DNA of 64,000 bases. Origin: Escherichia phage slur14. The DNA is taken from sequence record NC_028448.1; one strand, 5' to 3'. This document shows positions 2,527 to 12,477 of the stretch, in pieces (position 1 is the stretch's first letter; each line of letters starts with the position of its first letter). The position numbers were made by a program, and so were the translations under genes. The notes under the pieces were generated by a model. It ran no database searches. It saw only the letters and a list, made by a program, of their open reading frames with translations, and was not told the DNA's origin.

Positions 2527-2988
2527 TCATTGAGTTTTAATTACTGCTTTAGAAGCCTTTCCTGGTAAACGACGACTGTTAATAATTGCCATCCTACATT
2601 GAAGTGACGGGTCTTTGAACTTCGCGTTAGGTTTACAAACTGTAAATCCAAGCCAAAGATTTCCATCTGTGATTTCTAAACGTCCAGGACGATATTCAAC
2701 CCCATCAATAAAATCCTCGTCAATGTCAGGGCGCGGAGGCATACTCAGGAATTCATTAACTTCTAAAACATGGTCTTTTATTTTATGGAATAATTCAAAA
2801 ACATATGTCTCGTCAATTTCCCGTTGAATTGCACGATCAAGAAGATGCTGAGAATATTTTAGATGAAACGATGAGACCCCTGCTGCTTTTGATGCCTCAC
2901 GAATCTCATTGTTAATTTGACGAAACTCCGACTCAAAGTGACGACGAAGCTTATTTCGACGGATAAAAACTTCTGTATTGATAGTCAT
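2527..2988 (-). CDS. regB: RegB site-specific endoribonuclease
   Basis: 153 aa, MTINTEVFIRRNKLRRHFESEFRQ...; length and sequence match T4 RegB as recalled; canonical early promoter immediately upstream. Confidence 0.9.
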   Translation of the reverse strand: MTINTEVFIRRNKLRRHFESEFRQINNEIREASKAAGVSSFHLKYSQHLLDRAIQREIDETYVFELFHKIKDHVLEVNEFLSMPPRPDIDEDFIDGVEYRPGRLEITDGNLWLGFTVCKPNAKFKDPSLQCRMAIINSRRLPGKASKAVIKTQ

Positions 2989-3015
2989 GTTATTCTCCTC
3001 TTAACTGATAGAAAA

Positions 3016-3045
3016 ATTATACCACAGTCAAGAGGAAAAGTAAAC
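3016..3045 (-). promoter_or_regulatory. T4-type early promoter (-35 GTTTAC, extended -10 TGgTATAAT) for regB
   Basis: Minus strand reads GTTTAC-18nt-TATAAT ending about 30 nt upstream of the regB ATG. Confidence 0.7.
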
Positions 3046-3047
3046 AG

Positions 3048-10811: not shown

Positions 10812-11285
10812 TTATTTGATTTGTTTAGCAGACCAAATGCGGTCTTTAATAATTTTTTGAATGTCTTCAACATACTCTAGGTCATGAGCATGTGGATTAT
10901 CTTTGAAACTATGAGCTCGCGCAAGTTTCTGGCCTTCGGTCTTAATTATCAAAAGTTCTTTAAGAATTGCTTCATACCTAGAGATAATTCCTTTAGCAAT
11001 ATTTTTTTCTTGTGCTGCTTTAGGGTCAGCCTTAGGAGCAGGTTTACCTGAAGCCTTTGCAAAAGCAGCTCCAGTAGCAACTAAACTTTTCCAAGCCATA
11101 CTAACTGCATTCCCTGTAAATCCTTCGGCTTTCATATCACGAGCAAATTGGAATCGTGATTCATCGGAAGCATCTTTATAGGAATATTTACCCGCGGCAA
11201 TGGCAGCTTTTGCGACAGCTTGAATTTCGGTGCTAGATGCTTCATTTAACACCGCTTCATTTAAAAATTGAGCATATGATTTCAT
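10812..11285 (-). CDS. internal-protein-like protein with capsid targeting sequence (cassette)
   Basis: 157 aa; MKSYAQFLNEAVLNEA... with two LNE|A motifs; own TATAAATA late promoter upstream and terminator downstream. Confidence 0.65.
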   Translation of the reverse strand: MKSYAQFLNEAVLNEASSTEIQAVAKAAIAAGKYSYKDASDESRFQFARDMKAEGFTGNAVSMAWKSLVATGAAFAKASGKPAPKADPKAAQEKNIAKGIISRYEAILKELLIIKTEGQKLARAHSFKDNPHAHDLEYVEDIQKIIKDRIWSAKQIK

Positions 11286-11325
11286 CTTATTTCCTGTTTT
11301 AATTCGTGGATTTAATATACTACTA

Positions 11326-11333
11326 TATTTATA
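11326..11333 (-). promoter_or_regulatory. late promoter TATAAATA for the internal-protein-like cassette
   Basis: Exact TATAAATA on minus strand about 40 nt upstream of ATG 11285. Confidence 0.6.
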
Positions 11334-11362
11334 CTAAAAAGCCCCAACCTTTCGGTCGGGGC
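11334..11362 (-). terminator. rho-independent terminator, copy B of the duplicated 31-bp element
   Basis: Minus strand GCCCCGACC-GAAA-GGTTGGGGC + TTTTTAG; 30/31 nt identical to copy A at 10775..10805. Confidence 0.75.
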
Positions 11363-11672
11363 TAAGCCTTGCGGCAACCTTGTCGGGGTTCCACCTGCTA
11401 AGGCAAGTGTTTGTACGAAACGCCGGGATTCGAACCCGGTTATTAAGCAGTTGACGCTACTCAATATTTTTAAAAGGCCATATCTCGACCATATCCGAAC
11501 GTTCCGTCAAAAACGCTACTCGGCTTACGGCAAAGATATTTCCTCGAATCGATAATTCGGTGCGCCGTTTCTGCTGTGATGTAAGAGGGCATCAATAAAC
11601 GCAAAGATTATTAACGCAATTCCTTACTCAGGGAACATCAGTCCGACGACTTACCGGTAGCGACCCGGTTTC
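11363..11672 (-). ncRNA. candidate small stable RNA region (position of T4 rnaC/rnaD)
   Basis: 310 nt with no ORF, between the 11673 stop and the terminator; minus strand has a tRNA-like T-arm CCGGG-TTCGAAT-CCCGG near 11421-11440. Confidence 0.4.
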
Positions 11673-12023
11673 TTAATATTCTTTTAAAGCATCAATCTGT
11701 TTACGGCGTTCACGCCATAAATCAATTGCTTCATACGCGGATTCAACATTTCGAATTGGACGGCATTTATATAAAGATTTGTGATTTTGATATTGCGTAG
11801 ATAACGGAATTTTATCTAAAAGGTCTTTACGTTCAAAGTATTCGTAACCATCTAAGCCAAATGAACGATTTTTGAGAAATTGCCAATGACCAAATTCGTT
11901 TTGAATATAAATATAATCCGCATGTTGATAAAGTAAATTAATTTCACGAAATGAGATATGTTTTTCATATTCATTGAAGTAAAATGTTAAATCATGAACT
12001 ACTAAATAAACATTACCTTTCAT
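11673..12023 (-). CDS. hypothetical protein
   Basis: 116-aa ORF with ATG start, 19 nt downstream of tRNA-Arg. Confidence 0.5.
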   Translation of the reverse strand: MKGNVYLVVHDLTFYFNEYEKHISFREINLLYQHADYIYIQNEFGHWQFLKNRSFGLDGYEYFERKDLLDKIPLSTQYQNHKSLYKCRPIRNVESAYEAIDLWRERRKQIDALKEY

Positions 12024-12197: not shown

Positions 12198-12311
12198 ATT
12201 AATACCTACTCCAACAATCAAGATGTCTTCACACGAAATTAAGAGAAGAGTGATCAGTTCAACCCCTATAATCGCGTCAAGTAGATATTAATGTGACAGT
12301 TGTCACAAATT

Positions 12312-12390: not shown

Positions 12391-12477
12391 TGGTGGGGAG
12401 TGGTGGAGTCGAACCACCCGAGTCGCAATGACAATGAATTTACAGTCCACACCGCTACCTCTACGGGATAACTCCCC
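12391..12477 (-). tRNA. tRNA-Tyr (anticodon GUA), long variable arm
   Basis: 87 nt; anticodon loop CUGUAAA; 16-nt variable arm resembling bacterial tRNA-Tyr; anticodon stem has two G-U pairs. Confidence 0.55.

What the first reader, a model, noticed from the sequence alone, without database searches (positions are those of the whole stretch)
11363..11672. 310-nt ORF-free stretch downstream of tRNA-Arg with a tRNA-like T-arm: candidate small stable RNAs
In a genome with almost no intergenic space, this segment has no ORF and is followed by a strong terminator. On the transcribed strand it contains a perfect T-arm-like element (CCGGG-TTCGAAT-CCCGG) but no complete cloverleaf. T4 is known to make two small stable RNAs (species C/D) from its tRNA region with unknown function; this is the likely equivalent.
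Basis: partly seen in the sequence, partly recalled or inferred. Interest (0 to 1): 0.45.

Follow-up and report, generated by a model that had tools for sequence, protein, structure and literature searches.

The report
T4 small stable RNAs rnaC/rnaD
This ORF-free stretch holds the two small stable RNA genes (rnaD and rnaC, "species 2 and 1") that phage T4 and its relatives are long known to carry at the end of their tRNA cluster, so the find is real but not new, and what the RNAs do is still unknown.

Summary
Window 11363-11672 (minus strand) has no credible ORF. It carries an exact T-arm (CCGGG-TTCGAAT-CCCGG, 11439-11423) with no full cloverleaf, and it ends at a strong intrinsic terminator (11363-11336).

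The stretch is the orthologue of T4 rnaD (about 11677-11559) plus rnaC (about 11552-11414). rnaC matches T4 at 137 of 139 bases and rnaD at 117 of 119. The layout is the same as in phage T2L: tRNA-Arg, ORF trna.2, rnaD, rnaC. These RNAs are annotated in T4, T2L, several RB phages and Aplg8, so the finding is already known. Papers from 2010, 2022 and 2025 still call their function unknown.

Comparison across several T4-like phage genera added structure:
- rnaC has a tRNA-like acceptor stem stacked on a T-arm.
- Two hairpins replace the D and anticodon arms. Their 6-nt loops (UUGACG and CGUCAA) are complementary in all 34 variants, with one compensatory change (UUGGCG and CGCCAA) in the Marfavirus group.
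- In other genera rnaC sits directly between tRNA genes.
- rnaD is confined to T4-like relatives and has a conserved base with a swappable tip.

My best guess for function, weakly supported, is a tRNA mimic that binds protein.

The parts
11559..11677 (-). rnaD (species 2 RNA) orthologue, about 119 nt. The conserved core starts at GAAACCGGG (11672). The first bases overlap the TAA stop (11675-11673) of the upstream ORF.
   Evidence: Coordinates transferred from the Aplg8 and T4 annotations. 117 of 119 bases are identical to T4. 14 variants share one fold.
11653..11669 (-). rnaD 5' hairpin: ACCGG / GUCGCUA / CCGGU. The 7-nt loop is invariant.
   Evidence: The outer pair changes from A-U to G-C in 3 of 14 variants. 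The other 4 pairs are invariant.
11560..11650 (-). rnaD long hairpin. The base stem GUCGUCG / CGGCG(C)AC is invariant. The apical part is hypervariable and comes as at least four unrelated cassettes in close relatives.
   Evidence: Eight pairs of the whole rnaD consensus show compensatory changes, seven of them in this hairpin (mostly toward the apex). G29, T2L and L012 carry entirely different apical sequence.
11553..11558 (-). A/U-rich spacer (GAAUUA) between rnaD and rnaC. It is the likely endonuclease cut region.
   Evidence: In other genera the same 5-6 nt spacer separates an upstream tRNA 3' end from rnaC. That cleavage happens here is inferred.
11414..11552 (-). rnaC (species 1 RNA) orthologue. 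It is 139 nt by the T4 annotation. The T2L annotation corresponds to 11551-11412 (140 nt, starting CGAUUCG and ending CGU-ACA).
   Evidence: 137 of 139 bases identical to T4. Covariance model R1 scores 158.7 bits. MFE -50.2 kcal/mol, z = -4.55.
11545..11551 (-). rnaC acceptor-like stem, 5' strand CGAUUCG. It pairs with 11422-11416 (CGUUUCG) to give 7 positions with a conserved tandem U.U in the middle.
   Evidence: helix 1: four pairs are invariant, the third pair is A-U in 8 sequences and G-C in 15, and the U.U/U.U is present in all 23.
11475..11544 (-). rnaC P2: AGG/CCU base plus a long bent hairpin, standing where a tRNA has its D arm. Its apical loop is UUGACG (11510-11505).
   Evidence: helices 2 and 3: 16 pairs with compensatory change. 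Two unrelated sequence types keep a length of 64-66 nt, with the loop 30-31 nt from the junction.
11467..11474 (-). A-rich single-stranded linker (UUUAAAAA) between P2 and P3. It is a conserved unpaired stretch outside the hairpin loops and the 3' tail.
   Evidence: AAAAAT is nearly invariant in alignment A3.
11441..11466 (-). rnaC P3: a 10-bp hairpin with the 6-nt loop CGUCAA (11456-11451), which is complementary to the P2 loop.
   Evidence: helix 5: 8 of 10 pairs show compensatory change. Helix 4 (loop-loop) is paired in 23 of 23 sequences and is UUGGCG/CGCCAA in the Marfavirus group.
11423..11439 (-). rnaC T-arm: CCGGG / UUCGAAU / CCCGG. It runs straight into the 3' strand of the acceptor stem, as in a tRNA.
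   Evidence: helix 6: the middle pair is U-A in 11 sequences and G-C in 10. The loop is UGCAUGC or UGCAUCC in Kanagawavirus and Winklervirus.
11411..11415 (-). Conserved 3' tail U-ACAA after the acceptor stem. It is U-CCAA in the Marfavirus group.
   Evidence: Alignment A3.
11364..11410 (-). 3' trailer with three small predicted hairpins. It is conserved only among Tequatrovirus-like phages and is probably removed during processing.
   Evidence: More distant genera have a tRNA or unrelated sequence at this position.
11336..11363 (-). Intrinsic terminator that closes the tRNA / trna.2 / rnaD / rnaC transcription unit.
   Evidence: Annotated as a terminator in Aplg8.
11673..12023 (-). Context: a 116-aa ORF, the orthologue of T2L trna.2, inserted between tRNA-Arg and rnaD. 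It is absent from T4 and RB3.
   Evidence: phrog_3355, unknown function, E = 6.7e-52.

Best explanation
The stretch encodes two structured non-coding RNAs, the orthologues of T4 rnaD (species 2, about 119 nt) and rnaC (species 1, about 140 nt).

Shown here:
- Near-identity to the annotated T4, T2L and Aplg8 genes, in the same gene order.
- Both lie on the tRNA strand, after the tRNA cluster and ORF trna.2 and before one strong terminator.
- rnaC has a covariation-supported fold. A 7-position acceptor-like stem stacks directly on a 5-bp T-arm. Two hairpins (P2 and P3) stand where the D and anticodon arms would be, and their 6-nt loops are complementary.
- rnaD has a small invariant-loop hairpin plus a long hairpin with a conserved base and an exchangeable tip.

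Inferred:
- Both RNAs are cut out of the long tRNA-operon transcript by host RNases. For rnaC the tRNA-like acceptor/T-arm helix would let RNase P set the 5' end. An RNase E-type cut in the AAUUA spacer and 3' trimming would do the rest.
- The compact fold makes them stable.

Function is not shown. rnaC cannot decode, because it has no anticodon arm and no encoded CCA in most lineages. I think it most likely acts late in infection as a protein-binding tRNA mimic or decoy, for a tRNA-processing enzyme or a tRNA-targeting host factor (about 30%). rnaD may be a host-specific accessory RNA. The confidence given is for identity and architecture, not for function.
For: Identity:
- 804 phage records match and 678 cover at least 80% of the query.
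- 100% identity to Aplg8, where the bases are annotated rnaD and rnaC.
- T4 annotation and alignment and the T2L layout.

Structure of rnaC:
- 53 modelled pairs are 89.4% paired, against 37-49% when the 3' partners are slid by 1-3 columns.
- 27 pairs show compensatory changes, and 0 of 500 shuffles reach the observed value on four of the five measures.
- MFE z-score is -4.55.

Kissing loops:
- Complementary in all 34 unique homologues.
- A-U changes to G-C in the Marfavirus group.
- P2 keeps 64-66 nt although its sequence is of two unrelated types.

tRNA-pathway context:
- In Karamvirus, Gelderlandvirus, Winklervirus, Moonvirus and Kanagawavirus, rnaC starts 5 nt after an upstream tRNA.
- In Karamvirus, Gelderlandvirus, Winklervirus and Moonvirus it ends 2-9 nt before the next tRNA.

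Selection and expression:
- Only the rnaC part of the query is still found by BLAST at 85-87% identity in other genera (H36 and H37).
- rnaC persists in VR7 and Kosakonia phage 305 without adjacent tRNAs.
- Northern blots show RNAC and RNAD as late RNAs in T4 (PMC9697503).
- A convergent SNP arose in rnaD when a T4-like phage adapted to a new host (PMC12685909).
Against: - No experiment on this particular phage. The RNA ends are transferred from annotations, and those disagree: T4 gives 139 nt from U1 to ...CGUA, T2L gives 140 nt from C2 to ...CGUACA.
- In this phage the rnaD 5' end cannot come from tRNA-Arg 3' processing as it can in T4, because an ORF intervenes.
- The kissing-loop support rests on a single evolutionary event plus invariance.
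- Whether the loops pair within one molecule or between molecules is open.
- The T-loop consensus is lost in Kanagawavirus and Winklervirus (UGCAUGC), which weakens a strict tRNA-elbow mimic.
- From my own memory of the older T4 genetics literature, not checked here, tRNA-region deletions are viable on laboratory strains. Any function would then be conditional.
- Nothing here identifies a binding partner.
Confidence: 0.9

Rival explanations
1. The RNAs are decayed tRNA genes or processing by-products. They would be stable only because they are structured, with no function of their own.
For: They lie in or at the end of tRNA clusters. rnaC keeps an acceptor/T-arm helix. One genome annotation even calls the 3' 94 nt a tRNA-Lys. 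From my own memory of the T4 genetics literature, the region is dispensable in laboratory strains.
Against: rnaC is conserved across at least eight genera, including one outside Straboviridae, with 27 compensated pairs, invariant loops and a fixed length. It persists where no tRNA is adjacent (VR7 and Kosakonia phage 305). The flanking intergenic DNA is not alignable between genera. The 94-nt tRNA-like fold is contradicted by a G.U to A.C change.
Confidence: 0.12
2. They are trans-acting base-pairing regulatory sRNAs that control phage or host mRNAs late in infection.
For: They are small, abundant late RNAs (PMC9697503). rnaD has a hypervariable apex that could act as a specificity region. An A-rich linker in rnaC could bind Hfq. 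A convergent SNP in rnaD arose during host adaptation (PMC12685909).
Against: No complementarity above chance to the rest of the 64-kb window: all hits are 14 nt or shorter apart from one 17-nt match with a mismatch, and all have E >= 0.1. No match to 5,426 E. coli genomes at E <= 10, although short seed matches would be missed. The conserved loops of rnaC pair with each other. The mature RNAs do not include the terminator U-tail typical of Hfq sRNAs.
Confidence: 0.13
3. rnaC self-assembles through its two complementary loops, loop 1 of one molecule pairing with loop 2 of the next. This would build dimers or larger RNA assemblies that act as a scaffold.
For: Two fully complementary 6-nt hairpin loops are conserved and once co-varied. 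P2 (about 25 bp) and P3 (10 bp) are unequal in length, so pairing within one molecule requires a sharp bend in P2.
Against: There is no direct evidence. An intramolecular triangle is geometrically possible with the 8-10 nt linker. The constant P2 length fits an intramolecular constraint at least as well.
Confidence: 0.1
4. The stretch encodes small proteins: the 44-aa ORF (11470-11604) or the 50-aa ORF (11312-11464), both on the minus strand.
For: The ORFs exist mechanically. Many GenBank records place 'hypothetical protein' CDS over this DNA.
Against: Both have TTG starts. I saw no Shine-Dalgarno motif upstream when reading the sequence, but ran no scan for one. Homologues differ by 1-4 nt indels (141-145 nt) and by paired compensatory substitutions. 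The RNAs are documented as stable non-coding species in T4.
Confidence: 0.02

Closest known systems
Bacteriophage T4 rnaC (species 1 RNA) and rnaD (species 2 RNA), also annotated in T2L, RB3, RB68, RB27, RB5, Kha5h and Aplg8
   Same: Same genes. 137 of 139 and 117 of 119 bases are identical to T4. Same order and strand at the distal end of the tRNA cluster, with the same terminator module downstream.
   Different: In this phage, as in T2L and RB68, the 116-aa ORF trna.2 lies between tRNA-Arg and rnaD. rnaD therefore does not abut a tRNA 3' end as it does in T4. The rnaD 3' end reads CACCG rather than CACCA.
tRNA-like domain of tmRNA (SsrA)
   Same: An acceptor stem stacked on a T-arm, with a large insertion where the D and anticodon arms would be. 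It is made by the tRNA-processing route.
   Different: ARAGORN makes no tmRNA call and there is no Rfam hit. There is no G3.U70, most lineages encode no CCA, and there is no tag reading frame or pseudoknot series.
Bacterial and phage Y-RNA-like YrlA RNAs (tRNA mimics that bind Rsr/Ro60)
   Same: A non-coding RNA with a tRNA-like acceptor/T-arm module joined to other helices. Some are phage-encoded. This comparison is from my own knowledge.
   Different: No Rfam match at E <= 10. No Ro-binding helix is recognisable. E. coli hosts of T4-like phages generally lack Rsr (from my own knowledge).
tRNA-like processing handles such as mascRNA/MALAT1 and the murine gammaherpesvirus 68 tRNA-miRNA RNAs
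   Same: A tRNA-like module recruits RNase P or RNase Z to cut a non-tRNA product out of a longer transcript. This comparison is from my own knowledge.
   Different: Those are eukaryotic systems. In rnaC the tRNA-like module stays part of the mature RNA.

Membership tests
T4-type rnaC (species 1 RNA) | Sequence homology to the T4 rnaC gene | tested here: met
   137 of 139 bases identical. 158.7 bits with a covariance model built from 23 homologues.
T4-type rnaC (species 1 RNA) | Position on the tRNA strand at the distal end of the tRNA cluster, downstream of rnaD | tested here: met
T4-type rnaC (species 1 RNA) | Accumulates as a discrete stable RNA of about 140 nt in infected cells | not testable with these tools
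   Shown for T4 by Northern blot (PMC9697503). No expression data exist for this phage.
T4-type rnaD (species 2 RNA) | Sequence homology to T4 rnaD and position immediately 5' of rnaC | tested here: met
   117 of 119 bases identical. A 6-nt spacer to rnaC, as in T4.
T4-type rnaD (species 2 RNA) | 5' end directly follows the tRNA-Arg 3' end, as in T4 | tested here: not met
   A 351-bp ORF intervenes, as in T2L and RB68. This is a feature of the T4 layout, not a defining feature of the gene.
Canonical tRNA | Cloverleaf with D arm, anticodon arm and T arm, recognised by tRNA detectors | tested here: not met
   No ARAGORN call. No Rfam tRNA hit at the gathering score. The best hit is tRNA-Sec at 16.6 bits against 47. 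The 94-nt alternative cloverleaf is contradicted by a G.U to A.C change.
Canonical tRNA | 7-bp acceptor stem contiguous with a 5-bp T stem and a 7-nt T loop | tested here: met
   helices 1 and 6. The acceptor stem has a conserved tandem U.U.
tmRNA | tRNA-like domain with G3.U70 and CCA, plus a tag ORF and pseudoknots | tested here: not met
   No ARAGORN tmRNA call and no Rfam hit. Pair 3-70 is A-U or G-C.
Hfq-dependent base-pairing sRNA | Conserved single-stranded seed complementary to target mRNAs, with the terminator hairpin and U-tail kept in the mature RNA | tested here: inconclusive
   No target above chance in the window or in E. coli genomes, but short seeds escape these searches. The annotated mature ends exclude the terminator.

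The most novel reading that the evidence does not exclude
rnaC is the founding member of an uncatalogued family of structured phage RNAs with no Rfam model. Its architecture is fixed: a tRNA-like acceptor/T-arm helix with a conserved tandem U.U, plus two hairpins locked by, or oligomerising through, a 6-bp kissing interaction. The family is conserved in at least eight genera of T4-like phages. It would act as a decoy or inhibitor of a host factor that recognises tRNA acceptor ends, for example a tRNA-targeting anti-phage toxin triggered late in infection. rnaD, with its swappable apex, would be a second host-specific module.
Probability: 0.15. Interest if true: 0.7.

Novelty: already known. 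Interest (0 to 1): 0.2.

Why it matters
As a finding it adds little. It is a correct rediscovery of two genes annotated in T4 for decades.

It has some practical value. Most of the roughly 800 related GenBank records leave these genes unannotated or cover them with spurious 'hypothetical protein' or 'tRNA-Lys' calls. No Rfam model matches them.

The function of species 1 and species 2 RNA has been unknown since they were described. From memory, that was in the 1970s. The comparative model built here gives concrete handles for deletion, mutation and pull-down experiments:
- the tRNA-like helix;
- the covarying kissing loops;
- the constant arm length;
- the placement of rnaC between tRNA genes in other genera;
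- the modular rnaD apex.

Tried and rejected
1. Rfam at gathering score and at E <= 10 found no family for either RNA.
2. tmRNA or tRNA identity is rejected.
3. The 94-nt class-II tRNA-like fold of the rnaC 3' part was suggested by a 'tRNA-Lys(ttt)' annotation in phage G29 and a weak tRNA-Sec hit. I rejected it because its third acceptor pair changes from G.U to A.C, while the terminal-stem model changes from A-U to G-C.
4. A search for antisense targets found nothing above chance in the 64-kb window. There was no match in 5,426 E. coli genomes.
In the 119 pattern matches screened, none had the kissing-loop motifs and one had only the short 3' motif, so I treat them as chance hits.
6. IMG/VR and metagenome scans for more divergent rnaC variants gave only the two known loop pairs.
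7. Complementarity between the rnaD loop (CGCUAC) and rnaC (GUAGCG) is 6 nt and not conserved in L083 or LC53, so I dismissed it.
8. Literature searches for a reported function or for the processing intermediate p2Sp1 found nothing in the held library. The T4 genome review (PMC150520) is not held.

Full report
**What is in the sequence**

On the minus strand the window carries a cluster of ten tRNA genes, from 12986 down to 12042 and ending with tRNA-Arg. After it come:
- a 116-aa ORF at 12023-11673;
- the flagged stretch;
- an intrinsic terminator at 11363-11340 followed by a T run.

The flagged stretch contains only mechanical ORFs of 24-50 aa, all with TTG starts. The T-arm-like element CCGGG-TTCGAAT-CCCGG is exactly at 11439-11423. 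It is unique in the window and none is expected by chance. ARAGORN calls no tRNA or tmRNA there. No Rfam family matches at the gathering score. At E <= 10 the only tRNA-like match is tRNA-Sec at 16.6 bits against a threshold of 47.

The stretch follows an ORF, not tRNA-Arg directly.

**What it is**

BLAST of 11340-11680 against 50,697 phage records gives 804 matching records, almost all T4-like phages of enterobacteria. Of these, 678 cover at least 80% of the query.

- Phage Aplg8 is 100% identical over the query. It annotates the same bases as ncRNA rnaD ('small stable RNA; species 2 RNA') and rnaC ('species 1 RNA'), followed by a terminator.
- The T4 reference has rnaC at 70908-71046 and rnaD at 71053-71171, next to tRNA-Arg.
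- The window aligns with T4 through both genes and about 60 nt beyond. rnaC matches at 137 of 139 bases and rnaD at 117 of 119.
- Transferred to the window, rnaD is about 11677-11559 and rnaC about 11552-11414.
- The ORF between tRNA-Arg and rnaD is the orthologue of T2L trna.2. T2L and RB68 have the same order as this window; T4 and RB3 lack the ORF. It belongs to phrog_3355, of unknown function.

**What the literature says**

- A 2022 time-resolved omics study classes both as late RNAs 'of yet unknown functions' and confirms this by Northern blot (PMC9697503).
- A 2025 evolution experiment found one convergent SNP inside rnaD in all lines of a T4-like phage adapted to strain ECOR34 (PMC12685909).
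- I found no paper in the held library that reports a function.

**Anatomy of rnaC**

Homologues exist well outside Tequatrovirus:
- Kanagawavirus, Karamvirus, Gelderlandvirus, Winklervirus, Gaprivervirus and Moonvirus;
- Marfavirus, which in the record's taxonomy sits outside Straboviridae;
- further IMG/VR and metagenome contigs.

This gives 34 unique sequences of 141-145 nt.

On a 23-sequence alignment (A3) I tested one explicit structure. It has four parts:
- a 7-position terminal stem, CGRUUCG/CGUUYCG;
- a long hairpin P2 that starts with AGG/CCU;
- a 10-bp hairpin P3;
- the T-arm.

Of the cells, 89.4% are paired, against 37-49% when the 3' partners are slid by 1-3 columns. Of the 53 pairs, 27 carry compensatory changes. 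No shuffle out of 500 reaches the observed value on four of the five measures (13 of 500 do for the count of further pair types).

The terminal stem and T-arm are arranged as in a tRNA, 7 + 5 bp and contiguous on the 3' side. The third acceptor pair switches from A-U to G-C. Positions 4 and 5 are an invariant tandem U.U. After the stem comes U-ACAA, or U-CCAA in the Marfavirus group.

A different fold is called a tRNA-Lys in one GenBank record. It uses CGGAACG as the 5' acceptor strand. It is contradicted because the same two substitutions turn its G.U pair into A.C.

**The kissing loops**

The apical loop of P2 is UUGACG and the loop of P3 is CGUCAA. They are perfect complements in every sequence. 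In the Marfavirus group they are UUGGCG and CGCCAA, which is a compensatory double change.

That is one evolutionary event, so it is suggestive rather than proof. Three further points support it:
- By my own estimate, not a tool result, perfect 6-nt complementarity between two hairpin loops has a prior chance of roughly 1 in 4,000.
- Both loops are otherwise invariant.
- P2 exists in two unrelated sequence types yet keeps a length of 64-66 nt, with the loop 30-31 nt from the junction.

All of this points to a constrained three-dimensional architecture. Whether the loops pair within one molecule, which needs a bend in P2, or between molecules cannot be decided here.

The T-loop consensus UUCGAAU is replaced by UGCAUGC or UGCAUCC in Kanagawavirus and Winklervirus. 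The hairpin is conserved more strictly than the T-loop motif.

**Genomic placement of rnaC**

In Karamvirus, Gelderlandvirus, Winklervirus and Moonvirus, rnaC lies directly between tRNA genes. It starts 5 nt after the upstream tRNA and ends 2-9 nt before the next one. In Kanagawavirus Q7622 it likewise starts 5 nt after tRNA-Met, but no tRNA follows it. No rnaD is present in any of these.

In the T4-type arrangement the 3' end of rnaD occupies the place of that upstream tRNA end, with the same AAUUA-type spacer.

In VR7 and Kosakonia phage 305, rnaC stands without adjacent tRNAs. That argues it is kept for its own sake.

**Anatomy of rnaD**

I saw rnaD only in Tequatrovirus-like phages, including the Gaprivervirus VR7. 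The 14 variants share three features:
- a 5-bp hairpin with the invariant loop GUCGCUA, one pair of which is compensated;
- an invariant base stem GUCGUCG/CGGCG(C)AC;
- an apical region that is replaced wholesale between close relatives, in at least four cassettes, while remaining a hairpin.

The 3' end is CACCA, CACCG, CACCU or CACAG, so CCA is not conserved. The fold of the window copy alone is not exceptional (z = -1.66).

**How it most likely works**

Shown:
- gene identity;
- co-orientation with the tRNA operon under one terminator;
- the conserved folds.

Inferred: both RNAs are excised from the operon transcript by host RNases, with the tRNA-like helix of rnaC serving as an RNase P substrate. 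From my memory of the older T4 literature, not checked here, a species 2 - species 1 precursor accumulates in RNase E mutants.

Late-promoter motifs (TATAAATA) on the minus strand lie upstream of the tRNA cluster at 13960-13953 and 14271-14264. None lies directly before rnaD.

Function remains unknown. rnaC has no anticodon arm, and its conserved loops are occupied with each other. No antisense target appears in the window or in E. coli genomes. For these reasons I favour a protein-binding tRNA mimic or decoy (about 30%) over the alternatives:
- a base-pairing sRNA (about 13%);
- a functionless relic (about 12%);
- a self-assembling scaffold (about 10%).

**Verdict**

The finding is already known. 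Interest is low as a discovery. It has some value as a re-annotation point and as a set of testable structural hypotheses for an old open question.

Noticed in passing
window 11363-11336 and 10807-10777 (minus strand): The same 31-nt terminator module (AGCCCCGACC-RAAA-GGTTGGGGCTTTTT) occurs twice, 97% identical, bracketing the 157-aa ORF 10812-11285 (phrog_2280, unknown function). The first copy is followed within 10 nt by a late-promoter motif TATAAATA (11333-11326). T4 and RB3 lack this ORF, so it looks like an inserted cassette that duplicated or brought its own terminator.
   Followed up: partly
window 11673-12023 (minus strand): A 116-aa ORF, the orthologue of T2L trna.2 (phrog_3355, unknown function), is inserted between tRNA-Arg and rnaD. 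Its TAA stop overlaps the annotated first bases of rnaD, so the rnaD 5' end must be made differently here than in T4.
   Followed up: partly
window 12198-12311 (minus strand): A 114-nt gap with no gene lies between tRNA-Asn and tRNA-His inside the otherwise tightly packed tRNA cluster. It contains the palindrome TGTGACAACTGTCACA. Aplg8 and G29 have the same gap.
   Followed up: no
window 12391-12477 (minus strand): ARAGORN calls a tRNA-Tyr here, but the Rfam tRNA model lists only 9 of the 10 tRNAs at its gathering score and misses this one.
   Followed up: no
GenBank records matched (for example slur03, CrRp10, G29 = L008:972-1065): Most related phage records leave rnaC and rnaD unannotated or place 'hypothetical protein' CDS over them. 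G29 annotates the 3' 94 nt of rnaC as tRNA-Lys(ttt). These look like annotation errors.
   Followed up: partly
L004 (T4) 2909-3047 versus L023 (T2L) 1812-1951: The T4 and T2L records place the rnaC ends differently. T4 gives 139 nt from U1 to ...CGUA. T2L gives 140 nt from C2 to ...CGUACA. The T2L version corresponds to a clean 7-bp acceptor stem, a discriminator U and ACA in place of CCA.
   Followed up: partly
L005 (Q7622) versus L244 (Kosakonia phage 305), both Kanagawavirus: Two phages of one genus carry the two unrelated sequence types of the rnaC P2 arm. The arm appears to be exchanged by recombination while its length and apical loop are kept.
   Followed up: no
L078:1073-1188 (minus strand): There is a weak second hit of the rnaC model (25.9 bits) in Citrobacter phage Moon-like contig L078. 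It spans the 3' end of one tRNA-like sequence and a following tRNA-like sequence and is probably just tRNA similarity.
   Followed up: no
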